Source: a virus (taxonomy: Duplodnaviria; Heunggongvirae; Uroviricota; Caudoviricetes). From it: a stretch of 64,000 nt of DNA. The notes beneath the pieces are model-generated. The model ran no database searches. It saw only the letters and a list, made by a program, of their open reading frames with translations, and was not told the DNA's origin. Shown here piece after piece: positions 55,045 through 64,000 of the stretch. Position 1 is the stretch's first letter, and every line of letters begins with the position of its first letter. The translations under genes were made by a program, and so were the position numbers. The stretch covers positions 64,001-128,000 of the IMG/VR virus record IMGVR_UViG_3300043444_000502; one strand, written 5' to 3'.

Positions 55045-55073
55045 TTTACTTTTTAATCTAGTTGTGGTATAAT
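55045..55073 (+). promoter_or_regulatory. Promoter TTTACT-N17-TATAAT upstream of g43
   Basis: -35 at 55045-55050, TGTGG plus -10 at 55068-55073. Confidence 0.82.
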
Positions 55074-55079
55074 ATAGCT

Positions 55080-57596
55080 ATGGAATTCTATACTAATATA
55101 TCTCGTTACGGCAATCAACTCCTTTATCGTGGATACAAGGATGGTCGCCGTATCCAAACAAAAATCCCCTTTTCTCCAACACTTTTTGTCCCAGTAGAAA
55201 AACCTACGGGATGGATAGCTGTCGATGGAAAACATGTTGAACCATACCGTTGCGAAACTATGCGCGACGCAAAAGAATTTATGGAACGTTATAAAGATGT
55301 TTCTAATTTCGAAATCTATGGTAACACTAATTATATTGCACAATTCGTTACTGAAAAATTTCCAGGAATAATTAAATTTGATCCTACAATTGTCAATATT
55401 ACTTCAATCGATATCGAAGTAGCTTCTAATGAAGGTTTCCCAGAACCAGAAGAAGCAAAATATCCAATCATTTCTATCGCAATTAAGAATAATATTGATA
55501 ACACATATTATGTGTGGGGTCTTGGACCTTATGATGTAAGTAAATCTATTATGCAAAATAATAGAGTTGTGTATGTTCAATGCAAAGATGAACAAGAATT
55601 GTTAGTTCGATTTATAAATCATTGGGGTTCAGCTACACATATTCCAGATATTGTTACAGGTTGGAATATTCGTAATTTTGATATTCCATATATCGTCAAT
55701 CGTTGCGCTCGTATCCTTGATGGTGATACTATTAGAAAATTATCTCCATGGGGTAGAGTCGAAGAAAAACTTGTTACAATGCAAAAGAAACAAGTTCAAA
55801 TGTATGATATCATCGGTATTGCACAACTTGACTGGATGGATTTATTTAAAAAGTTTGGTCACACTTATGGTCCACAAGAAAATTATCGTCTAGATACGAT
55901 TGCTAATACTGTGCTTGGTGAACATAAGCTTGATTATGATGGCACACTACACACATTGTACATGACTGATCATCAGAAGTTTATCGACTATAACATTCGA
56001 GATGTTGATCTTGTTGTTCGTATGGAAGAAAAAGTTGGATTGATCGTTCTATGTTTGACTATGGCTTATAAAGCTGGTGTTAACTATAACGATACATTTG
56101 GTACTACTTCTATTTGGGATACATTAATCTATCGTTATCTTACTCCACAAAATATTGCGGTACCTCCAAATAGAGAATCATTCAAAGAAGCTTATGATGG
56201 TGGTTATGTTAAGGAACCGCAATGTGGTGTGCATGATTGGGTTGCATCATTCGACGTAAACTCTCTGTATCCAAACATCATTGTACAATGGAACATGTCA
56301 CCTGAAACTATCGTTAAAGGTCGTCATGATCATCGTGTAAGTCCTGATTCTATTCTCGAAGGTTATGTACCTGAGAAGACTGAATATGGTGTATGTGGTT
56401 CTGGTCAAATGTTCTCTAATGAGAAACAGGGTTTCATGCCTAAGATTATTGAAGAACTATATGATGAGCGTGTTAAAGTTAAGAAGATGATGCTAGCTTC
56501 TAAACGAGAACTTGAATCATGTGATAAAACAAATAAGCAAGAAGTGTATAGAATTGAACGTGATATTGTTCGTTATGAAAATGAACAAACAGCTATTAAA
56601 CTTTTGCTTAACTCACTTTATGGTGCACTTGGTAATAAGTACTTCCGTTACTTTACGATGGAGATTGCAGAAGGCATCACATTATCTGGCCAATCGATCA
56701 TTCGTTGGGCTGAAAAAGCAGTTAATGATTATCTAAATAAAGCACTAAGAAACCAAAAGTACAAAGACTATGTCATCGCTATTGATACTGATTCTGTTTA
56801 TGTTAATCTTGGTGAGGTTGTTAAGGCGTCGAAATTAACAGACAAAACTAAGATCACTAACTTCCTTGATAAGTTGTGCAGTGAAGCATTAGAATCTGTA
56901 TTGGATAAAGCATTCATTCAGATTACAGAAAATATGAATTGCTTTAAGAAGCGTCTAACTATGAAGCGTGAAGCTATTGCAGATCGTGCCATTTGGACTG
57001 CTAAGAAACGTTATATCTTAAATGTACTAGATAACGAAGGTGTACGATATGCAAAACCGAAGCTTAAGATCATGGGAATCGAGGCGATCAAGTCCTCAAC
57101 ACCGGGCACGTGTCGCGAGGCTTTTGAAGAATTGTTTAAAGTGCTCATCTCAGGTACGGAAACTGAAACTCAAACTTTTATTCAATCTTATAGAGAAAAA
57201 TTTGAGTCACTTCCGCCCGAAGATAAAGCGTTCCCGCGCGGGGTTTCACAAGTTAAGGAATACCAATCGCGTGATACGATCTACAAGAAAGGTACGCCGA
57301 TAAATTCACGTGCTGCTATCTTGTATAATCATATGCTTGATAAAAACGGATTGAAGACTTATACACCAATCCGTGGTGGTGACAAGATTAAGTACATTTA
57401 TTTGTATCCAAACAATCCAACAAAAGAAGATGTAATTGGATTTGTAGATATTTTACCACCTGAATTTAAACTAGATAAGTATATCGATAACGATAAACAA
57501 TTTGAAAAGGCTTTTCTTGAACCAGCTAAATTAATTTTAGATGCTATCGGTTGGAAAGCTGAACCAGTTGCAACATTAGAGGACTTTTTTGGATGA
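55080..57596 (+). CDS. g43: Family B DNA polymerase gp43
   Basis: DIE ExoI, GWN..NFD, SFDVNSLYP, KLLLNSLYG, AIDTDS, KKRY; ATG at 55080; no intein seen. Confidence 0.98.
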   Translation: MEFYTNISRYGNQLLYRGYKDGRRIQTKIPFSPTLFVPVEKPTGWIAVDGKHVEPYRCETMRDAKEFMERYKDVSNFEIYGNTNYIAQFVTEKFPGIIKFDPTIVNITSIDIEVASNEGFPEPEEAKYPIISIAIKNNIDNTYYVWGLGPYDVSKSIMQNNRVVYVQCKDEQELLVRFINHWGSATHIPDIVTGWNIRNFDIPYIVNRCARILDGDTIRKLSPWGRVEEKLVTMQKKQVQMYDIIGIAQLDWMDLFKKFGHTYGPQENYRLDTIANTVLGEHKLDYDGTLHTLYMTDHQKFIDYNIRDVDLVVRMEEKVGLIVLCLTMAYKAGVNYNDTFGTTSIWDTLIYRYLTPQNIAVPPNRESFKEAYDGGYVKEPQCGVHDWVASFDVNSLYPNIIVQWNMSPETIVKGRHDHRVSPDSILEGYVPEKTEYGVCGSGQMFSNEKQGFMPKIIEELYDERVKVKKMMLASKRELESCDKTNKQEVYRIERDIVRYENEQTAIKLLLNSLYGALGNKYFRYFTMEIAEGITLSGQSIIRWAEKAVNDYLNKALRNQKYKDYVIAIDTDSVYVNLGEVVKASKLTDKTKITNFLDKLCSEALESVLDKAFIQITENMNCFKKRLTMKREAIADRAIWTAKKRYILNVLDNEGVRYAKPKLKIMGIEAIKSSTPGTCREAFEELFKVLISGTETETQTFIQSYREKFESLPPEDKAFPRGVSQVKEYQSRDTIYKKGTPINSRAAILYNHMLDKNGLKTYTPIRGGDKIKYIYLYPNNPTKEDVIGFVDILPPEFKLDKYIDNDKQFEKAFLEPAKLILDAIGWKAEPVATLEDFFG

Positions 57597-59071
57597 ACAC
57601 TAGAATTAAAAAAATGATTATTGTAGGAGGCGGTACAGCTGGTTTAGTTGCTGCCATTATTCACAAACGCCTAAATCCCACTATTGAGATTCAAGTTTTA
57701 GAATCATCAGAGATTGGAATTATCGGCGTTGGAGAAGGTAGCACAGAACATTGGAATATGTTTATTGACCAATGCAATCTAAGTCGTGCAGAAGTGATGA
57801 AAGAATGTGCTGCTACCATTAAAACTGGCATTAAGTTTGTAAATTGGAATGGCAAAGGTGATGACGACGTGTATTTTCATTCAGTGATTGGACCATATGA
57901 TTCAGTGTTCATCAATGGAGTGTTTTCATATTGGACTAATGCATTAGTTACAGGTAAGTCATCAGTTGAAATGACATCGCCTAGAATTCCTGTAAGTATG
58001 TTCCAAAAGGGTGATGGTCCAGGAACTAATCAATATCATTTCGATACCTTTAAACTTAATCAATATTTGCATAAAGTAGCAAAGGAACGTGGTGTTATAT
58101 TTACCGATGCAATAGTCAATGAAGTAAAATTAAAAGAAAACGGTTATGTAAAATCTTTAATTGATAATGCTGGAAATGAATACGTAGCAGATTTTTTCAT
58201 CGATGCTAGTGGATTTAATAGAGTTATCATGAATAAACTAGGAGCAAAATGGATTGATTGCAAAAAGTATTTGCCAATGAATCATGCAATTGCTTTCCCT
58301 ACAGAATATCAAGAAGATATTGACGCATTTACGACTGCACACGCTAGAAATGCAGGTTGGTCATGGCGTATTCCAACTCAAGAACGATTTGGTAATGGAT
58401 ACGTTTTCTGTGATGATTATATCACAAAAGAACAAGCACACGCAGAAATGGAACAAATCTTTGGTAGATCTATTGAAATCGGCCGAGATATTAAATTTGG
58501 TGCAGGTCATGTGGATAGACCGATGATTAATAACTGTACTGCTATTGGTTTAGCTGGCGTTTTCGTTGAACCACTTGAAGCTTCTAGTATTGGTGCAACT
58601 ATTCAACAGTGTTTTGCGTTATCAACATCATTGCAAATGTATGAAGAAGGTAATAAAACATTAGAGAATATTCATAACAAGCAAATGCTTAAAATGTTCT
58701 CAAATATTATTGACTACATTCAAATTCATTATTTTACAAAGCGTGATGATACAGCATTTTGGAAAGATAAACCGTTTGAAATTACAGAATTTAATAAAGA
58801 AACTATTGATACAATGAAACGTTCATTGCCTTCTATTCATTATTTCCAAGATCCATATCTTATGTTTAGACATGTAAATTGGTTTATGACTATGGAAGGA
58901 TTAAAGTTATTTGACATTGAAGAAATTAAGCGTATTCACGCTGAACAACCACCACAGGCTTGGGAAGAAGTGAATACATTTTTTGATAACGCAACTATCG
59001 CATTTAGAGAAGGTGCAAAAAACAAACACCGCGATCAATTGCAAGATATCATGAGCGGTATGTACAATTAA
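57593..59071 (+). CDS. Second flavin-dependent halogenase family protein
   Basis: GGGTAG, IGVGEG, ATIK, WSWRIP, FVEPLEA. Confidence 0.9.
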   Translation: MNTRIKKMIIVGGGTAGLVAAIIHKRLNPTIEIQVLESSEIGIIGVGEGSTEHWNMFIDQCNLSRAEVMKECAATIKTGIKFVNWNGKGDDDVYFHSVIGPYDSVFINGVFSYWTNALVTGKSSVEMTSPRIPVSMFQKGDGPGTNQYHFDTFKLNQYLHKVAKERGVIFTDAIVNEVKLKENGYVKSLIDNAGNEYVADFFIDASGFNRVIMNKLGAKWIDCKKYLPMNHAIAFPTEYQEDIDAFTTAHARNAGWSWRIPTQERFGNGYVFCDDYITKEQAHAEMEQIFGRSIEIGRDIKFGAGHVDRPMINNCTAIGLAGVFVEPLEASSIGATIQQCFALSTSLQMYEEGNKTLENIHNKQMLKMFSNIIDYIQIHYFTKRDDTAFWKDKPFEITEFNKETIDTMKRSLPSIHYFQDPYLMFRHVNWFMTMEGLKLFDIEEIKRIHAEQPPQAWEEVNTFFDNATIAFREGAKNKHRDQLQDIMSGMYN

Positions 59072-59123: not shown

Positions 59124-59573
59124 ATGAGTGAATTTATGAACAGTAAATGGGTTGGTGATATTGCAGCAATGCATACAAAATTTGGCGTTAATAAAGTATT
59201 GCGTCAACTTGATCGTGATAAGCTTGAGGCATTCCTTAAGTTTCGAATTGACTTCTTGCAAGAAGAACTTGACGAGATGCGTAAAGCTGTAGTTGATCGT
59301 CAAACTGGCAAGATTGATGCAACTACTGCAGCAGATGATACAGTCGATGCATTGATTGATCTTTGTGTTGTTGCTATTGGTACATTGAATGCTTTCGACG
59401 TAAATGCAGATGAAGCATGGAATCGCGTACATCGTGCAAATATGACTAAGGAAGTTGGTATCAAAGAATCTCGACCAAATCCGCTTGGTCTTCCAGATCT
59501 AATTAAACCTGAAGGTTGGACAGCACCAACTCATGCTGATAACATAGGTATGTTGAACAAAGTATTTGAGTAA
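59124..59573 (+). CDS. MazG-like/all-alpha NTP pyrophosphohydrolase
   Basis: LQEELDE...DALID...VHRANMTK...LIKPEGW. Confidence 0.85.
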   Translation: MSEFMNSKWVGDIAAMHTKFGVNKVLRQLDRDKLEAFLKFRIDFLQEELDEMRKAVVDRQTGKIDATTAADDTVDALIDLCVVAIGTLNAFDVNADEAWNRVHRANMTKEVGIKESRPNPLGLPDLIKPEGWTAPTHADNIGMLNKVFE

Positions 59574-59917
59574 TGGCAATCTCAACACCTATCGGTCAGA
59601 TTAGGTACAACCCAAATACTCTATTTCAAGAGATTTGGGATGGAAAAACTTGGGTAGAAGTGGATGATACAGGCTTTACACAAATGCCTATTCATACCAT
59701 TTCTGCTAATACTATATCTACAACCGCAGCTTCTAATATTGTTAATACTAATTTGACTGACAACGCTAAAGAAGATTTATATCAATTTTTAAAATCAAAT
59801 CTAAGAGTTGGCGAATACTTAGATGAAAATGGTAAAATTGAATATGTTCAATTAGAACTGCGAGAAGGCGAAGGTTGCACTTGGGAAACAATTCAACGTG
59901 TAAGAATTAAACAATGA
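59573..59917 (+). CDS. Hypothetical protein
   Basis: 114-aa ORF translationally coupled at both ends. Confidence 0.6.
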   Translation: MAISTPIGQIRYNPNTLFQEIWDGKTWVEVDDTGFTQMPIHTISANTISTTAASNIVNTNLTDNAKEDLYQFLKSNLRVGEYLDENGKIEYVQLELREGEGCTWETIQRVRIKQ

Positions 59918-60903
59918 AATATTCTTTGACAGCGTTTGAGTCTATTTTTGATAATAAGACTCATCGGCAAATACATCATGAAACTTGGGAAGCATTCGAA
60001 GCTATGCTTTATAAGATGGCTTCTATTCCTGGATATAAATTAAAAAAGGGCGAACGTCGTGCACCGAAAGGTCTAAAGGCTTCGCCTTTAATTACTCCTG
60101 CAGTTTATGCAGAAAATAAAACACGAGCTAATGATAACGTAATTGAATGGGCTGGTTGGGCTGCTATTGACGTAGATGATCATAAGTTCGAAGGAAATTT
60201 AAAGGACGAACTTCATGCTAAGTATGGCAATTATTATTACGTTTGTTATTCTACTAGCTCTAGTACGAGCGATCATCCTAAGTTTCGGCTTGTCTTCCCA
60301 CTTACGAATGGTGTTAGACAGTCATCGATCAAGCATTTCTGGTATGCACTCAACCGGGAATTCGATGGCATCGGAGATCAACAGACTAAGGACTTATCTA
60401 GAATGTACTATGTCCCTGCGACATATCCTAATGCTAATAACTTCATTTTCACTAATGTTGGTAGTTTTATTAATCCAAATGATTTGATGAATAAACATCC
60501 ATTTGTTGTAACGCAATCAAACGTTGCAACATTTATGGATAGACTTCCGCCAGAAGTGCAAAAGAAAGTTACTGCACATCGTGAAGAACTTTTAAAATCA
60601 CTTGCTAATTATGATTTTGAATGGTCATCATATCAAGATTGTCCATTTGTTAATAAAAAATTAGTCAGTGATTATGCATCAATTGCACATGCAGATGGTT
60701 CTGGTCGTTATGCTATGATTTATAAGATCATGTCATCTATTGCATGCAATGCAATAAAGAAAAAATATCCAATTACTGCTGCACAAATTGCAGAATTAAT
60801 TAGACAACTTGATAGAGATACATCTCGTAGATACCAAAAACGTCCTCTTCAAACAGAAGCAGAACGTGCATTAGAATATGCATATAAAACAGTTGAAATC
60901 TAG
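59914..60903 (+). CDS. AEP primase-polymerase-like protein
   Basis: AIDVDD (DxD), YSTSS, PKFRLVFPL, D...KDLSRMYYVP; helical C-terminal domain. Confidence 0.7.
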   Translation: MKYSLTAFESIFDNKTHRQIHHETWEAFEAMLYKMASIPGYKLKKGERRAPKGLKASPLITPAVYAENKTRANDNVIEWAGWAAIDVDDHKFEGNLKDELHAKYGNYYYVCYSTSSSTSDHPKFRLVFPLTNGVRQSSIKHFWYALNREFDGIGDQQTKDLSRMYYVPATYPNANNFIFTNVGSFINPNDLMNKHPFVVTQSNVATFMDRLPPEVQKKVTAHREELLKSLANYDFEWSSYQDCPFVNKKLVSDYASIAHADGSGRYAMIYKIMSSIACNAIKKKYPITAAQIAELIRQLDRDTSRRYQKRPLQTEAERALEYAYKTVEI

Positions 60904-60932
60904 TGTACAGCAAGAAATAAATGTGGTATAAT
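60904..60932 (+). promoter_or_regulatory. Early promoter TGTACA-N17-TATAAT
   Basis: -35 at 60904-60909, -10 at 60927-60932. Confidence 0.85.
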
Positions 60933-60957
60933 ATTATTATACAATTAAGGAAATAAC

Positions 60958-61332
60958 ATGCAAAAACAATATTCACGTCCATCAGCAAATATTTTGCTAG
61001 AAGCAGCCGAAATTCAAGAGAAAAAGGGTCAAGATTATAATAATGCCGTATCAAGTGTTGAACAAGCAGACTATTACCCGCGCGGTGTAACTTCTATTCT
61101 TGATATCATTAACGCAAAATATCTTCGTATGGTATCTGTACTTGAGACTATGCAAGCTGGTGGAAAGGTTAACTTCGAATCAGTCGAAGATTCAGCACTC
61201 GACATGATCAATTATGCGTCATTTGTAGTAGCTTATATGCGTGGTCAAGTACCCGGTCAAAAACCTGGTTATGATATCTTTAATCGTAAATCTGACGGCA
61301 ATCCTGCATTACTTCCATCTTCTAAGGAATAA
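60958..61332 (+). CDS. Nucleotide-modification-associated domain 1 (Nmad1/DUF1599)-like protein
   Basis: EIQEKKGQDY, K..R, EDSALDMINYA. Confidence 0.7.
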   Translation: MQKQYSRPSANILLEAAEIQEKKGQDYNNAVSSVEQADYYPRGVTSILDIINAKYLRMVSVLETMQAGGKVNFESVEDSALDMINYASFVVAYMRGQVPGQKPGYDIFNRKSDGNPALLPSSKE

Positions 61333-61333
61333 T

Positions 61334-62041
61334 ATGATTCGTAATTACGTATATGATATTCAACAAGAATTTGCACGTAAACTTGTTGAACAAGAATTTG
61401 TCACTGATAAAGGTGGTGCAAAAACAATTGAAATTATTAATGCATCTTTTATTGCTGATGAGAAATCTATTTTTGGCGAAGTTAATGAAGACTATGTAAA
61501 ACGTGAACTTGAATGGTATCGTTCAATGTCATTAAATGTTAACGACATTCCAGGTGGTACACCTGCAATTTGGAAACAAGTTGCTGATAAAAATGGCATC
61601 ATTAATTCGAATTATGGTTGGTGCATTTATTCTGAAGAGAATCATCATCAGTTTACAAAAGTTGTTGATGAATTAGTTAAGTCACCATTGTCACGTCGTG
61701 CTACAATGATTTACATTCGTCCAACAATGCATGAAGATTATAAGGCGAATGGTATGTCAGACTTCATGTGTACTTACTCAACTCAATATTATATCCGTGA
61801 TGGTCAACTTCATGCTTCAGTTTTTATGAGATCTAACGATGCAGTTTATGGATACAAAAATGATTATGCATGGCAACGATACGTACAAAAAGAAGTGCTT
61901 CAAGCAATCAACGGTAAGTGTAATACTGTATATGCTCTTGGTGATCTTCACTGGAATGCTGGTAGTCTTCATGTCTATGAGCGGCACTTTGAACTAGTTG
62001 ATAAATGGGCTATTAATGATGGAGACTTCATTGTCAGATAA
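61334..62041 (+). CDS. g42: dCMP hydroxymethylase (T4 gp42-like, thymidylate synthase fold)
   Basis: INSNYGW, SRRA, DFMCT, MRSNDAVYGYKNDYAW (Asp at the TS Asn177 position), SLHVYERH; ATG at 61334. Confidence 0.88.
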   Translation: MIRNYVYDIQQEFARKLVEQEFVTDKGGAKTIEIINASFIADEKSIFGEVNEDYVKRELEWYRSMSLNVNDIPGGTPAIWKQVADKNGIINSNYGWCIYSEENHHQFTKVVDELVKSPLSRRATMIYIRPTMHEDYKANGMSDFMCTYSTQYYIRDGQLHASVFMRSNDAVYGYKNDYAWQRYVQKEVLQAINGKCNTVYALGDLHWNAGSLHVYERHFELVDKWAINDGDFIVR

Positions 62042-62477
62042 TAAATGGAATGATCGTTATATGGCTATGGCCAAAGAAGTTTCTCTTTGGTCTAAAGATC
62101 CTAATACTAAAGTTGGTGCAGTTGCAGTTGGAGAGAAAGGACAGATTCTATCTCAAGGATATAATGGTTTTCCCCGCGGAATTTTGGATTCTCCTCAACG
62201 CTTAAATGATAGAGAAACTAAATATCGTTTTGTAGTTCATGCAGAAATGAACGTAATTTACAATGCTACATATTCAGGAGTTTCTCTTGATAATGCAAAA
62301 TTATTTGTTTATGGATTACCTGTTTGTAGCGAATGCGCTAAAGGTATTATTCAAGTAGGTATTAAAGAAGTATATGTTGCAAAAGAATGCATTGATTTGA
62401 GACCACATTGGTTTGAATCATTTCAAAAAACTATGGATATGTTTGAAGAAGTTGGAATTAAAGTGTTTGCCGTATGA
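62016..62477 (+). CDS. cd: dCMP deaminase (start may be TTG 62031)
   Basis: SKDP.TKVGA, GYNGFPRG, HAEMN, PVCSEC. Confidence 0.93.
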   Translation: MMETSLSDNKWNDRYMAMAKEVSLWSKDPNTKVGAVAVGEKGQILSQGYNGFPRGILDSPQRLNDRETKYRFVVHAEMNVIYNATYSGVSLDNAKLFVYGLPVCSECAKGIIQVGIKEVYVAKECIDLRPHWFESFQKTMDMFEEVGIKVFAV

Positions 62478-63625
62478 CAATTGAAACCACTAAATATTAT
62501 GATGAGTACTTGAGATACTTTGCTCTTGCTACTAAACAGCAAGAGCTTTGTAACTTTGGAACTACGTTACATACTGAATCAAATATAGATGATGATCTTA
62601 TGCATCATGTAGAATTATATGATGTAGTTGAACGTAAGTATGCCGGTTTCTCACAAATCGTTAATGATGCATTTTATGGATGGACAGATAAACATCCGTA
62701 TTGGGACAAGATGCAATCAGGTCATATCACACTTCAACGTGAAGTAGTAGCAAAAGATTGGACAGGTAAACATGCAGACTTTAAACTCGCTGAATGGTTG
62801 TATATCTTTATTCTGCATAGAGTTTGTGGTTCCGCGATTAATTATGCTACTAAGCCAAGCGGTTATTACAATACGTTACTCTTCAACTTGCACAAAGCCA
62901 AGACGATTGAAGGAATGGTTGAGATCGTAAACAAACATCCTAAACCATTCTACACTTCAGTTGGTTATCAGTTCCCATCATTCCCTAAACCACCAGCTGA
63001 CTCTTCATATAAGCGTAGTGGCGATTACTACTTAAGCGAATATGCACCACGTTTAGCTAGAGAGATGGCTGAATGGTTAGAAAAAGGCGGTAAGCGAGAT
63101 CTTCGCGAAATTGGTAGTTTCATGTTAGATTGGAATGAAAAGAATGGATTACGAAAGTATCATTTCCAATATGCAGCTGTTGTTGCAGACGTTGCTGATT
63201 GGTATCCGCAGTATGTTAATAGAGAATCACACTTCTATTATGGTACAAACGCTCGTGAATGTATTTCTTACTTAGCAAAACCAACAAAGAAAATGAAGGA
63301 AGATGAGTTCTTAGATGCAGTAATGACTAAGATCTATGAAGATACAGGCGCAGTACCATATAATGCTGAGGACGTATGTTGTGACTTTATTCGTTGGGTA
63401 GAAAACTATATTCGACCAGGCGCAGATTATAATCACTTAGACTTTGATTCTGTATGGTCATCATGTACGATTAAAGACCATCCATTTGGTAGACAAGAGA
63501 ATATGTTGAAGCTTGGATTGGTAAAGACATTTAATAATATTACTGCTCATCCATCAGATGATACAATTATTAAAGCAGCTGGTTTAACAGTAGAACAATA
63601 TAAAGAAAAATGCAAAACGATTTGA
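62474..63625 (+). CDS. Probable amino acid:DNA transferase (aGPT-PPlase)-like protein
   Basis: Helical protein with FILHR, AVVADV, EDVCCDFIRW (cf. E..LCE..K motif); directly after g42 and cd. Confidence 0.5.
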   Translation: MTIETTKYYDEYLRYFALATKQQELCNFGTTLHTESNIDDDLMHHVELYDVVERKYAGFSQIVNDAFYGWTDKHPYWDKMQSGHITLQREVVAKDWTGKHADFKLAEWLYIFILHRVCGSAINYATKPSGYYNTLLFNLHKAKTIEGMVEIVNKHPKPFYTSVGYQFPSFPKPPADSSYKRSGDYYLSEYAPRLAREMAEWLEKGGKRDLREIGSFMLDWNEKNGLRKYHFQYAAVVADVADWYPQYVNRESHFYYGTNARECISYLAKPTKKMKEDEFLDAVMTKIYEDTGAVPYNAEDVCCDFIRWVENYIRPGADYNHLDFDSVWSSCTIKDHPFGRQENMLKLGLVKTFNNITAHPSDDTIIKAAGLTVEQYKEKCKTI

Positions 63626-64000
63626 TGGAATTTATCAGTGAACCATATGTGAACATCACATATGAAGGCACATCTCCAGTTACCTTAAAAAACGGTAAAC
63701 CAACTGAAAGTTGGATGAAAGACTGGACACAAGAACAACGATTCGAAAAGTTCTTTGAGTGGTGCCATGCATTTGATAAACGCGAAGATAAATTATTGCG
63801 AGAAGACTATCAAATCTTCTCGCATCGTCTACATTGGCATGAACATCCATTTGTAGATGTTATGAAGCCAATCACAGATAATAAACTGCGTTTATTCTAT
63901 ACGTTAGTATTCTCATTTAGTAATGAACATTGGGGTACGCTCATGTCATTAATGAATGATGGTATTATAACGACACGCGAACGTTTTAAAACTCAACGAC
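63625..64000 (+). CDS. 3'-truncated ORF, probable second aGPT-PPlase-like protein
   Basis: Frame open from ATG 63625 to the window end; FFEWC...KREDKLLREDYQIFSHRL resembles the clade-1 N-terminus. Confidence 0.45.
   Translation, partial: MEFISEPYVNITYEGTSPVTLKNGKPTESWMKDWTQEQRFEKFFEWCHAFDKREDKLLREDYQIFSHRLHWHEHPFVDVMKPITDNKLRLFYTLVFSFSNEHWGTLMSLMNDGIITTRERFKTQR

What the first reader, a model, noticed from the sequence alone, without database searches (positions are those of the whole stretch)
59124..64000. Cytosine-specific hydroxymethylase paired with amino-acid:DNA-transferase-like genes: possible new hmC hypermodification
Seen: a gp42-like enzyme with RSNDAVYGYKND (Asp where dUMP-specific TS has Asn177), with Nmad1-like, MazG-like and dCMP deaminase genes, followed by two coupled ORFs resembling aGPT-PPlase/AADT proteins. 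No glucosyltransferase is in the window. Established: AADTs in phiW-14/ViI-type phages attach amines or amino acids to 5-hydroxymethyluracil after phosphorylation by a DNA kinase, whereas T4 hmC is glucosylated. Inference: this phage may apply the kinase/AADT route to hmC, giving an amino-acid- or amine-modified cytosine. The AADT calls rest on motif resemblance only.
Basis: partly seen in the sequence, partly recalled or inferred. Interest (0 to 1): 0.8.

Follow-up and report, generated by a model that had tools for sequence, protein, structure and literature searches.

The report
Kinase-less hydroxymethylcytosine hypermodification gene cassette
An uncultured aquatic T4-like phage has T4's enzyme for making 5-hydroxymethylcytosine, but where T4 keeps its sugar-adding enzymes it carries four genes distantly related to the enzymes that attach amino acids to thymine in other phages, so its DNA probably carries an undescribed, non-sugar cytosine modification.

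Summary
The window holds a MazG-like pyrophosphatase, Nmad1, a T4-type dCMP hydroxymethylase, a dCMP deaminase and two coupled unknown ORFs.

The hydroxymethylase carries Asp at all three diagnostic positions. It is therefore not an RB69-type 5-hydroxy-dCMP synthase.

The two ORFs (383 and 327 aa) match no Pfam model. They are distant paralogs sharing an E-D-x-x-C motif. The 383-aa protein folds confidently, and its best solved match is the amino-acid:DNA transferase PaMx11 gp46.

The operon continues past the window with two more genes:
- a chimera of the N-terminal half of T4 beta-glucosyltransferase and an SGNH esterase/acyltransferase domain, which is fused to the 383-aa family in other phages;
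- a PLP enzyme of the family of M6 gp52, a proven DNA-acting decarboxylase.

No 5-hmdU-type kinase, glycosyltransferase or second ThyA homolog is detectable in the 99%-complete genome.

The cassette sits in the gene 42-uvsX slot that holds sugar transferases in T4, Acinetobacter phages and RB69. It recurs in at least 588 viral contigs.

My reading is a post-replicative, amino-acid-type hypermodification of hmC with an esterase-fold enzyme in place of the kinase. No chemistry has been shown. The scan has reported the same cassette in at least eight other genomes.

The parts
59124..59573 (+). MazG-like all-alpha NTP pyrophosphohydrolase (149 aa). Candidate dCTP-clearing enzyme, in the role of T4 gp56.
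   Evidence: Pfam PRA-PH E 1.2e-7; phrog_671 E 6e-22. No dUTPase_2/gp56-type gene elsewhere in the genome. Related cassettes carry a dUTPase_2-type gene in the same neighbourhood. The substrate is inferred.
60958..61332 (+). Nmad1 (DUF1599, nucleotide-modification-associated domain 1), 124 aa
   Evidence: Pfam DUF1599 E 5.5e-4 (20.7 bits, below the cut-off of 25); phrog_1485 E 4.4e-17. Conserved directly upstream of the hydroxymethylase in close relatives.
61334..62041 (+). T4-type deoxycytidylate 5-hydroxymethyltransferase (gp42 homolog), 235 aa
   Evidence: 54% identical to Tequatrovirus gp42, 62% to the Acinetobacter phage AB1I1M-1 homolog, 25% to RB69 gp48. Catalytic Cys present. Asp at the ThyA L143, D169 and N177 positions. 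It is the only ThyA-family gene in the genome.
61998..62477 (+). dCMP deaminase (T4 cd-like), up to 159 aa
   Evidence: Pfam dCMP_cyt_deam_1 E 1.4e-18; phrog_174 E 2.2e-42.
62474..63625 (+). P0001, 383 aa: AADT/HMUDK_hel-fold (HhH-GPD-like) protein with invariant E299...C303. Core component of the cassette.
   Evidence: No Pfam or PHROG hit. Model pLDDT 95.1. Best of 48,161 PDB chains is PaMx11 gp46/PUGT, Z 9.4. AFDB and ESM Atlas matches to HMUDK_hel/AADT-labelled clusters. Family of 140 clusters at 50% identity. Fused behind the SGNH protein in seven of them.
63610..64000 (+). First 130 codons of P0004 (327 aa in full; genome record 127610-128593): distant paralog of P0001 with the same E-D-x-x-C motif.

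Two more cassette genes follow beyond the window:
- P0005, 326 aa, genome 128590-129570: beta-glucosyltransferase N-terminal half plus SGNH domain.
- P0006, up to 320 aa, genome 129546-130508: PLP enzyme.

uvsX comes next.
   Evidence: - P0004: hhalign to the P0001 family gives prob 86%, E 4.7e-6. ESM features 0.97-0.98 to AADT/HMUDK_hel clusters. Absent in 13 of 62 close relatives.
- P0005: SGNH fold, Z 12. N-terminal half against a beta-glucosyltransferase profile: prob 92.5%, E 5e-7.
- P0006: phrog_7093 E 1.9e-69, the family of M6 gp52. Lys65 aligns with M6 K36.

Best explanation
This is a DNA-hypermodification cassette that works on 5-hydroxymethylcytosine.

Shown by sequence:
- The phage encodes a T4-type dCMP hydroxymethylase.
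- A MazG-like pyrophosphatase and a dCMP deaminase lie beside it.

Inferred from the T4 paradigm:
- dCTP is cleared, hm-dCTP is made and hmC is built into the DNA at replication.

Inferred for the cassette, after replication:
- Four co-transcribed proteins decorate the hydroxymethyl group.
- P0005 binds hmC-DNA through a domain homologous to the N-terminal half of T4 beta-glucosyltransferase. Its SGNH (Ser-His) domain carries out an acyl-transfer or ester step that takes the place of the DNA kinase of the thymidine pathways. The most likely step is O-acylation, which makes the hydroxyl a leaving group.
- P0001, an AADT-fold base-binding protein that is fused to P0005 in other phages, then couples a small amine or amino acid to the 5-methylene carbon.
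- P0004 is an accessory paralog.
- P0006, a PLP enzyme of the M6 gp52 family, then decarboxylates or otherwise trims the appended amino acid.

The expected product is a non-glycosyl cytosine carrying an amine or amino acid, which would protect the DNA from host nucleases.
For: - Hydroxymethylase signature and 54-62% identity to gp42 homologs that sit next to glucosyltransferases. The diagnostic residues come from PMC13326640.
- It is the only ThyA homolog in the genome, and ThyX is present.
- P0001 fold: pLDDT 95.1. PUGT/AADT is the best of 48,161 PDB chains (Z 9.4, rmsd 4.1, 206 residues). HMUDK_hel-domain proteins score at probability 1.0 in AFDB. ESM Atlas matches by features and by shape.
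- P0001 and P0004 are paralogs sharing E-D-x-x-C. The PUGT active site uses E243, T244 and C247. The ends of the structural alignment (314 with 258) place E299 on E243.
- P0005 has an SGNH fold with conserved GDS Ser and a block-V His. Its N-terminal half is homologous to beta-glucosyltransferase: prob 92.5%, E 5e-7, reversed control 0.4%.
- Seven fusion representatives join a P0005-like and a P0001-like domain. Aeromonas phage 44RR2.8t ORF233c is an SGNH fusion whose best, weak Pfam hit is HMUDK_hel.
- P0006 lies in phrog_7093 with M6 gp52. The PLP lysine and phosphate loop are conserved, and M6 gp52 activity is described in PMC8989533.
- The cassette sits in the gene 42-uvsX slot that holds glucosyl- or arabinosyl-transfer genes in T4-like phages.
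- Conservation: at least 588 IMG/VR contigs. In close relatives P0005 is present in 59/62, P0006 in 59/62 and P0004 in 49/62, and every complete hydroxymethylase hit has the Asp signature.
- A non-T4 phage carries fusion + PALP + Asp-type ThyA homolog + NTP pyrophosphatase. A second divergent contig looks alike.
- No glycosyltransferase families and no kinase candidate were found.
Against: - No chemistry is shown, and no cultured phage carries the full cassette.
- P0001 and P0004 fail the Pfam AADT/HMUDK_hel models. Only 2 of 77 family members give weak hits.
- Profile-profile comparison with a 73-sequence gp46-clade AADT profile is not significant.
- The structural match to PUGT (Z 9.4) is statistically tied with queuine-salvage DUF2419 (Z 8.5) and AGOG glycosylases (Z 7.9). 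It is also below the level that is safe for helical proteins.
- The acyl donor, the nucleophile and the order of steps are guesses.
- SGNH domains are more often hydrolases than transferases, and the catalytic Asp of the triad is missing.
- I did not look for the dNMP kinase needed to make hm-dCDP.
Confidence: 0.6

Rival explanations
1. The cassette acts before replication, on free nucleotides. The DUF2419/Qng1-like fold of P0001 and P0004, the SGNH enzyme and the PLP enzyme would build or salvage a modified deoxycytidylate, which the polymerase then incorporates.
For: - P0001's second and third best solved matches are queuine-salvage nucleotide hydrolases (Z 8.5 and 8.1).
- The cassette sits among nucleotide-metabolism genes: MazG, hydroxymethylase, deaminase.
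- Nmad1 is a nucleotide-modification-associated domain.
Against: - The N-terminal half of P0005 is homologous to beta-glucosyltransferase, which works on hmC in duplex DNA.
- P0006's family includes a DNA-acting enzyme. P0006-like domains are fused to or sit beside ParB/DNA-methylase proteins.
- All characterised AADT-fold enzymes act on DNA.
Confidence: 0.1
2. The true substrate is 5-hydroxymethyluracil. The adjacent dCMP deaminase would convert hm-dCMP to hm-dUMP, and the cassette would then be an ordinary thymidine-type hypermodification.
For: - A dCMP deaminase is translationally coupled between the hydroxymethylase and P0001. One also lies beside the cassette on a divergent contig.
- All known AADTs act on 5-hmdU derivatives.
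Against: - dCMP deaminase is a standard T4-like gene, needed to feed ThyX, which is present.
- Another divergent cassette has no deaminase nearby but keeps an Asp-type ThyA homolog.
- The P0005 N-terminal half resembles the hmC-specific beta-glucosyltransferase.
- No 5-HMUDK is present.
Confidence: 0.08
3. P0001 and P0004 are HhH-GPD-type DNA glycosylases or base-flipping proteins used for repair or for attacking unmodified host DNA. hmC would stay plain, and the SGNH and PLP genes would be unrelated auxiliary metabolic genes.
For: - A run of HhH-GPD glycosylases matches at Z 5-8.
- Sequence profiles do not link the proteins to AADT.
Against: - SGNH and P0001-like domains are fused in seven cluster representatives.
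- P0001, P0005 and P0006 are linked in 59/62 close relatives and in a non-T4 phage, together with an Asp-type ThyA homolog.
- The Pfam HhH-GPD model does not match.
- The cassette occupies the slot that holds hmC-decorating genes in other T4-like phages.
Confidence: 0.08
4. The cassette adds a sugar or polyol after all, through an unrecognised transferase. P0005, as a remodelled glycosyltransferase, or P0001 would attach a carbohydrate-like group rather than an amino acid.
For: - P0005 keeps a beta-glucosyltransferase-like half.
- The Aeromonas phage fusion lies next to a Na+/glucose symporter.
- One fusion representative has a weak MGDG_synth hit.
- A cytidylyltransferase-like gene lies about 9 kb downstream.
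Against: - The UDP-sugar-binding C-terminal half of beta-glucosyltransferase is replaced by an SGNH domain.
- No glycosyltransferase family is found in the genome.
- The conserved PLP enzyme points to amino-acid chemistry.
Confidence: 0.08

Closest known systems
Thymidine hypermodification pathways of phages M6, ViI, PaMx11, PhiW-14 and SP10: dUMP hydroxymethylase, 5-hmdU DNA kinase, amino-acid:DNA transferase (aGPT-Pplase/AADT) and tailoring enzymes such as the PLP decarboxylase M6 gp52 (PMC8989533; PUGT structure in PMC11472151)
   Same: - A ThyA-family hydroxymethylase supplies a 5-hydroxymethylpyrimidine.
- AADT-fold proteins are present (top structural hit PUGT, shared E-x-x-x-C spacing).
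- The PLP enzyme is in the same PHROG as M6 gp52, with the same lysine.
- The genes are clustered with nucleotide-metabolism and replication genes.
   Different: - The hydroxymethylase is dCMP-type, so the base is cytosine.
- There is no P-loop 5-HMUDK.
- A beta-glucosyltransferase-half/SGNH chimera is the conserved and often fused partner.
- The AADT-like proteins fall outside the Pfam models and are not linked to the gp46 clade by profile comparison.
T4 hmC glucosylation (gp42, gp56, alpha- and beta-glucosyltransferases) and RB69/DLP3 arabinosylation of 5-hydroxycytosine (PMC13326640)
   Same: - T4-type gp42 homolog.
- Same genomic slot between gene 42 and uvsX.
- The N-terminal half of P0005 is homologous to beta-glucosyltransferase.
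- A dCTP-clearing pyrophosphatase candidate and a dCMP deaminase are present.
   Different: - No glycosyltransferase catalytic half and no NDP-sugar genes in the cassette.
- The ThyA homolog keeps Asp169, so it makes hydroxymethyl and not 5-hydroxy.
- The tailoring set is SGNH + AADT-fold + PLP.
Aeromonas T4-like phages 44RR2.8t, 31 and Aes012, and Stenotrophomonas phage IME13: 795-aa ORF233c family (phrog_17781)
   Same: - The N-terminal 330 residues belong to the P0005 family (phrog_13881, E 1e-111).
- The C-terminal part gives HMUDK_hel as its best, weak Pfam hit.
- These phages also carry gp42-like genes.
   Different: - The helical domain is not detectably P0001-like (no hit with the P0001-family HMM).
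- No P0006-like PLP gene was found in these phages by tblastn.
- The gene lies beside a Na+/glucose symporter, not beside gene 42.

Membership tests
T4-type dCMP hydroxymethylase (gp42; ThyA superfamily) | ThyA-family fold/HMM with the catalytic Cys (E. coli C146) | tested here: met
   Pfam Thymidylat_synt E 5.4e-16, above the cut-off; phrog_160 E 2.6e-56. The Cys is invariant in alignment A2.
T4-type dCMP hydroxymethylase (gp42; ThyA superfamily) | Asp at the N177 position (cytosine specificity) and an acidic residue at the L143 position (water access, giving hydroxymethyl) | tested here: met
   GYKND and MSDFMC motifs, identical in pattern to Tequatrovirus gp42. Criteria from PMC13326640.
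T4-type dCMP hydroxymethylase (gp42; ThyA superfamily) | Asp kept at the D169 position (Asn marks 5-hydroxy-dCMP synthases) | tested here: met
   RSND here and in T4-type enzymes, against RSQN in RB69 gp48. Criterion.
T4-type dCMP hydroxymethylase (gp42; ThyA superfamily) | Converts dCMP to 5-hm-dCMP | not testable with these tools
   Needs an enzyme assay or the in-vivo incorporation assay of PMC13326640.
Amino-acid:DNA transferase (Pfam ADDT PF18724 / aGPT-Pplase clades) | Match to the family HMM above its cut-off | tested here: not met
   P0001 and P0004 give no hit even at E<=10. A whole-genome six-frame search with PF18724 finds nothing. 1 of 77 family members hits at E 1e-3. Profile-profile comparison with the gp46 clade gives prob <3%.
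Amino-acid:DNA transferase (Pfam ADDT PF18724 / aGPT-Pplase clades) | Two-helix-bundle fold of PUGT (PaMx11 gp46) | tested here: met
   8z2m_A is the best of 48,161 chains (Z 9.4, rmsd 4.1, 206 residues). This is tied within 1 Z unit with DUF2419. AFDB HMUDK_hel proteins score at prob 1.0. ESM Atlas TM 0.63-0.74 to clusters labelled AADT or HMUDK_hel.
Amino-acid:DNA transferase (Pfam ADDT PF18724 / aGPT-Pplase clades) | Active-site Glu-Thr...Cys helix (PUGT E243, T244, C247) that holds the flipped base | tested here: inconclusive
   E299-D300-x-x-C303 is invariant in the P0001 family and conserved in P0004. The correspondence to PUGT rests only on the alignment end points (314 with 258), not on a residue-level superposition.
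Amino-acid:DNA transferase (Pfam ADDT PF18724 / aGPT-Pplase clades) | Works with a 5-hmdU DNA kinase encoded in the same genome | tested here: not met
   PF18723 is absent. All Walker-A ORFs are accounted for as PhoH, AAA_5, clamp loader, terminase, gp46 or gp41, or are weak AAA proteins.
SGNH/GDSL hydrolase superfamily (P0005 residues ~135-326) | SGNH alpha/beta fold | tested here: met
   VIA Z up to 12.0 (4rsh, 2hsj). Dozens of SGNH esterases and O-acetyltransferases match at Foldseek prob 1.0. AFDB SGNH domains also match.
SGNH/GDSL hydrolase superfamily (P0005 residues ~135-326) | Block I GDS Ser nucleophile, block V His, and the Asp of the triad | tested here: inconclusive
   G146-D147-S148 and H309 are invariant in 24 sequences. 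The usual Asp three residues before the His is not conserved, so at most a Ser-His dyad is present. No Pfam SGNH model matches.
T4 beta-glucosyltransferase (GT-B, PF09198) | N-terminal domain | tested here: met
   hhalign of P0005 residues 1-102 against a 5-sequence beta-glucosyltransferase profile, residues 1-114: prob 92.5%, E 5e-7, shared NxFGG motif; reversed control 0.4%.
T4 beta-glucosyltransferase (GT-B, PF09198) | C-terminal UDP-glucose-binding domain / whole-family HMM | tested here: not met
   PF09198 finds nothing in the genome. The C-terminal part of P0005 is SGNH.
DNA-acting fold-type-II PLP enzymes (M6 gp52 / ViI gp226; phrog_7093) | Family HMM match and PLP-binding lysine | tested here: met
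   P0006 hits phrog_7093 at E 1.9e-69 over positions 8-278 of 279. M6 gp52 hits it at E 2e-159. K65 aligns with M6 K36, and the SxGT loop and the PFP...YD.KAW motif are shared. Pfam PALP is only 21 bits, below the cut-off of 35.
DNA-acting fold-type-II PLP enzymes (M6 gp52 / ViI gp226; phrog_7093) | Decarboxylates an amino acid attached to a DNA base | not testable with these tools
   Needs reconstitution. Pairwise identity to M6 gp52 is low (BLAST E 0.006).

The most novel reading that the evidence does not exclude
hmC in DNA would be activated by a new kind of enzyme. This enzyme is a beta-glucosyltransferase acceptor half welded to an SGNH acyl-transfer domain, and it would replace the ATP-dependent DNA kinase of every known pyrimidine hypermodification pathway. 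An AADT-fold protein and a PLP enzyme would then convert the activated base into the first amino-acid- or amine-bearing cytosine known in any DNA. This base would be abundant in aquatic T4-like phages.
Probability: 0.4. Interest if true: 0.85.

Novelty: new variant of a known kind. Interest (0 to 1): 0.72.

Why it matters
All known non-methyl decorations of cytosine in phage DNA are sugars. Amino-acid-derived hypermodifications are known only on thymine, and they always start with a DNA kinase.

A conserved, widespread cassette that joins the hmC pathway to AADT-fold and PLP enzymes without a kinase would imply three things:
- a new modified base in environmental phage DNA;
- a new way of activating a hydroxymethyl group on DNA;
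- new enzymes for site-specific chemistry on 5hmC, which is also a mammalian epigenetic mark.

It would also bear on how restriction, CRISPR and sequencing chemistries behave on aquatic viral DNA.

Tried and rejected
- Direct Pfam and PHROG scans of P0001 and P0004: no hits.
- P0001-family and P0005-family profiles against PDB sequences: nothing meaningful.
- Foldseek of the P0001 model against PDB: only weak HhH-GPD rows.
- hhalign of the P0001 and P0004 families against PaMx11 gp46 alone, 4 sequences and a 73-sequence clade profile: not significant.
- Bridging through 77 family members scanned against Pfam: 2 weak hits only.
- tblastn of P0001 and P0004 against 50,697 phage records: no match.
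- P0001-family HMM against the C-terminus of Aeromonas ORF233c: no hit.
- Reading the ThyA homolog as an RB69-type 5-hydroxy-dCMP synthase: considered because its best DNA matches include Acinetobacter phages. Rejected on the Asp169 criterion and on 25% identity to RB69 gp48.
- Search for a hidden kinase by Walker-A motif and Pfam: none.
- Glycosyltransferase families PF09198, PF11440, PF00534 and PF00535, and dUTPase_2: none in the genome.
- ESM Atlas features for the P0005 N-terminal part: no usable hit.
- IMG/VR scan with a beta-glucosyltransferase: nothing.
- Complex prediction for P0001 with P0005: 'no answer' (score 0.00). This is neither support nor evidence against binding.
- phmmer of P0006 against PDB: nothing.

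Full report
**What is there**

The window is bases 64001-128000 of a 167.6-kb IMG/VR virus record rated 99% complete. It is a T4-like phage of an uncultured aquatic lineage. Its family-B DNA polymerase is at most 51% identical to that of any GenBank phage, and cyanomyoviruses are next at about 46%.

From 55062 onward the + strand carries one tightly packed series of genes:
- DNA polymerase;
- a flavin-dependent halogenase;
- a MazG-like pyrophosphatase (59124-59573);
- a 114-aa unknown;
- a primase-like protein;
- Nmad1/DUF1599 (60958-61332);
- a ThyA-family enzyme (ATG at 61334, to 62041);
- a dCMP deaminase (61998-62477);
- P0001 (62474-63625, 383 aa);
- P0004 (63610 onward, 327 aa, running 594 bases past the window).

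Beyond the window come P0005 (326 aa), P0006 (up to 320 aa), uvsX, a small ORF, the gp41 helicase, ThyX and a 2OG-Fe(II) oxygenase. The stop and start codons of deaminase/P0001, P0001/P0004 and P0004/P0005 overlap, so these genes form one operon.

**The hydroxymethylase**

A 2026 paper shows that some gp42-like enzymes (RB69 gp48, DLP3 gp80) make 5-hydroxy-dCMP rather than 5-hydroxymethyl-dCMP. These enzymes are marked by Asn at the position of E. coli ThyA Asp169. Asp at N177 gives cytosine specificity, and an acidic residue at L143 goes with hydroxymethylation (PMC13326640).

In alignment A2 the window enzyme has Cys at C146 and Asp at L143, D169 and N177, exactly like Tequatrovirus gp42. 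Its identities are as follows:

| Compared with | Identity |
|---|---|
| Tequatrovirus gp42 | 54% |
| Acinetobacter phage AB1I1M-1 homolog, which is followed by two glucosyltransferases | 62% |
| RB69 gp48 | 25% |
| PaMx11 dUMP hydroxymethylase | 20% |

It is the only ThyA-family gene in the genome. dTMP can come from ThyX. The enzyme is therefore a T4-type 5-hm-dCMP synthase by every sequence criterion available.

Neither matches any Pfam or PHROG model, even at permissive thresholds. Six-frame searches of the whole genome with PF18724 (ADDT) and PF18723 (HMUDK_hel) are empty.

Both proteins are nevertheless abundant in metagenomes:
- 935 and 481 cluster representatives respectively;
- 140 clusters at 50% identity for P0001;
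- at least 588 IMG/VR contigs.

With a 49-sequence alignment P0001 folds at pLDDT 95.1. The fold evidence is:
- An exhaustive comparison with 48,161 PDB chains puts the 5-PmdU glycinyltransferase PaMx11 gp46/PUGT first (Z 9.4, rmsd 4.1 A, 206 residues). This is the one solved amino-acid:DNA transferase I am aware of.
- Next come queuine-salvage DUF2419 (Z 8.5 and 8.1), AGOG (7.9) and other HhH-GPD glycosylases.
- The PUGT authors themselves found glycosylases/lyases at Z about 6 as its nearest folds.
- AFDB clusters give several '5-hmdU DNA kinase helical domain' proteins at probability 1.0.
- The ESM Atlas gives AADT- or HMUDK_hel-labelled viral clusters both by language-model features (0.95-0.97) and by shape (TM 0.63-0.74).

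P0004 is a distant paralog. hhalign against the P0001 family gives probability 86% and E 4.7e-6 over 130 columns. It aligns P0001's invariant E299-D300-x-x-C303 with an E-D-x-x-C in P0004.

In PUGT, E243, T244 and C247, with the same spacing, hold the flipped base and the metal. The structural alignment ends at model residue 314 and chain residue 258. That offset places E299 on E243. This is an inference from end points, not a residue-level result.

Against membership:
- Profile-profile comparison with a 73-sequence gp46-clade profile is not significant.
- Only 2 of 77 family members give weak ADDT or HMUDK_hel hits.

I therefore file P0001 and P0004 as a new family with the AADT/HMUDK_hel fold, not as members of the described Pfam families.

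P0005 (pLDDT 89.6) has an SGNH/GDSL-fold domain at residues about 135-326. The evidence is Z up to 12 and dozens of esterases and O-acetyltransferases at Foldseek probability 1.0. G-D-S148 and H309 are invariant, but the triad Asp is not conserved.

Earlier notes of this scan suggested a glucosyltransferase-like half, so I tested that. The first 102 residues align colinearly with residues 1-114 of a five-sequence T4 beta-glucosyltransferase profile at probability 92.5%, E 5e-7, sharing an NxFGG motif. The reversed control scores 0.4%. T4 beta-glucosyltransferase acts on hmC in duplex DNA (record annotation). In GT-B enzymes the N-terminal domain generally holds the acceptor; this last point is from my own knowledge. 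The nucleotide-sugar half is replaced here by the SGNH domain.

P0005-like and P0001-like domains are fused, in that order, in seven independent cluster representatives of 640-790 aa.

In cultured Aeromonas T4-like phages, the 795-aa ORF233c of 44RR2.8t joins a P0005-family domain (phrog_13881, E 1e-111) to a C-terminal part. The best Pfam hit of that part is HMUDK_hel, and it is weak (E 0.0036).

P0006 hits phrog_7093 at E 1.9e-69 over its whole length. M6 gp52 is in the same family (E 2e-159). M6 gp52 is the PLP-dependent enzyme shown to decarboxylate an amino acid already attached to thymine in DNA (PMC8989533). P0006 Lys65 aligns with the proposed PLP lysine K36 of gp52, and the SxGT loop and a C-terminal PFP...YD.KAW motif are shared. 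P0006-like domains are also built into a 'DNA modification methylase' fusion in Erythrobacter phage vB_EliS_R6L, and one lies beside ParB genes in Microcystis phage Mae-JY30.

**What is absent**

- No 5-hmdU-type DNA kinase. All Walker-A ORFs are PhoH, an AAA_5 ATPase, clamp loader, terminase, gp46 or gp41, or are weak AAA proteins.
- No T4 alpha- or beta-glucosyltransferase, GT2 or GT4 family gene.
- No gp56-type dUTPase_2. This leaves the MazG-like protein as the candidate dCTP-clearing enzyme.

**Context and conservation**

The cassette lies between gene 42 and uvsX. The same slot holds:
- a glucosyltransferase gene (annotated beta-glucosyl-HMC-alpha-glucosyltransferase) directly after gene 42 in a Tequatrovirus;
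- two glucosyltransferases in Acinetobacter phage AB1I1M-1;
- the arabinosylation genes in RB69.

Among the 80 closest IMG/VR relatives with enough flanking DNA:

| Gene | Present |
|---|---|
| P0005 | 59 of 62 |
| P0006 | 59 of 62 |
| P0004 | 49 of 62 |
| ThyA homolog | 46 of 66 (within up to 10 kb fetched) |

46 of the 48 ThyA-homolog hits show RSND....G...D; in the other two the motif was not found in the aligned segment. P0004 is therefore accessory, and the core is SGNH + P0001 + PLP.

The core recurs far outside T4-like phages. On contig L012 (RecA, SNF2 helicase) a fusion protein is followed by a PALP enzyme 36% identical to P0006, an Asp-type ThyA homolog and an NTP pyrophosphatase. 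Another contig has dCMP deaminase, dUTPase_2, the fusion, two unknowns and a ThyA homolog.

**Mechanism proposed**

Shown: the gene content, the folds, the fusions, the synteny and the signature residues.

Inferred from the T4 paradigm: dCTP is cleared, hm-dCMP is made and hmC is incorporated.

Inferred for the cassette:
- P0005 binds hmC-DNA with its beta-glucosyltransferase-like half. Its Ser-His SGNH domain performs an acyl-transfer or ester step on the hydroxymethyl group.
- The most economical version is O-acylation, which creates a leaving group. Amino-acid biosynthesis offers a parallel: homoserine is activated for the same kind of substitution either by acylation or by phosphorylation.
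- P0001 flips and holds the base and couples an amine or amino acid to the 5-methylene. P0004 acts as an optional second transferase or subunit.
- P0006 decarboxylates or otherwise processes the appended amino acid.

A variant I cannot exclude is that the invariant Cys303/Glu299 pair of P0001 activates C6 or N3 of cytosine, in the manner of C5-methyltransferases. Departure of the hydroxyl would then need no prior activation, and the SGNH domain would have a later, trimming role.

**Rivals**

The rivals are action on free nucleotides, action on hmU after deamination, a glycosylase or repair role with plain hmC, and a cryptic sugar or polyol transfer. Each is listed in its own section with evidence for and against. 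Together I give them about 0.35.

**Comparison and novelty**

The system works like the thymidine hypermodification pathways. It differs in three ways:
- the base is cytosine;
- the activating enzyme is an SGNH chimera, not a P-loop kinase;
- the AADT-fold proteins belong to a family that Pfam does not cover.

I found no paper in the searchable library that links hmC with AADT-type, SGNH or PLP enzymes. It is a new variant of a known kind.

This scan has already reported the same cassette in at least eight other genomes, and follow-up agents reached the same reading. Those are unchecked AI notes, not independent evidence. The one lead I took from them, the beta-glucosyltransferase-like half, I tested here.

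**Verdict**

- Observation: confirmed.
- Interpretation: partly supported. The base and the enzyme superfamily are right. The kinase step is wrong, and family membership is not met.
- Confidence in the general explanation: 0.6.
- Interest: 0.72.

Noticed in passing
window 57593-59071 (+): A flavin-dependent halogenase (Pfam Trp_halogenase E 1.5e-91) overlaps the DNA polymerase stop codon by 4 nt and directly precedes the nucleotide-modification genes. Its substrate is unknown. A second halogenase lies in the late region, according to earlier notes.
   Followed up: partly
L003 6995-9382 (Aeromonas phage 44RR2.8t ORF233c, 795 aa), and the same gene in about 40 Aeromonas, Stenotrophomonas and Tenacibaculum phage records: These cultured phages (the Aeromonas ones T4-like with gp42-like genes) carry a beta-glucosyltransferase-half/SGNH domain fused to a weakly HMUDK_hel-like C-terminal domain. 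In the two Aeromonas phages inspected it lies next to a Na+/glucose symporter. This is a tractable system for testing what the SGNH partner does to hmC-DNA.
   Followed up: partly
L096 7001-7696 (Erythrobacter phage vB_EliS_R6L gp1); L097 5986-6696 (Microcystis phage Mae-JY30): P0006-like PLP domains occur inside a large 'DNA modification methylase' fusion protein and beside two ParB/sulfiredoxin genes. The annotation as methylase is probably wrong for this domain. It suggests that DNA-acting PLP enzymes also occur in other modification systems.
   Followed up: partly
window 61334-62041 compared with 55062-57596: The gp42-like gene is 62% (protein) and 71% (DNA) identical to Acinetobacter T4-like phage genes. 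The polymerase of the same phage is at most 51% identical to any GenBank phage. This suggests horizontal acquisition or unusually strong constraint on the hydroxymethylase.
   Followed up: no
L002 14771-16545 (genome record 137770-139544): A DUF6267 protein (384 aa, E 1e-26) and a cytidylyltransferase-like protein (206 aa, E 1e-7) lie about 9 kb downstream of the cassette. Whether they supply an activated donor is unknown.
   Followed up: no
L012 9605-9883 and 13273-13803; contig of P0168: Divergent versions of the cassette carry extra small conserved unknowns: a DUF6378 protein upstream, and 176-178-aa and 293-aa proteins between the PLP enzyme or fusion and the ThyA homolog. These have no counterpart in this window.
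   Followed up: no
protein P0244 (584 aa): A repetitive metagenomic protein matches P0001 residues 321-350 nine times through a repeated CTLDTHPFG-like unit. This is probably a spurious translation of repeated DNA, not a relative.
   Followed up: no
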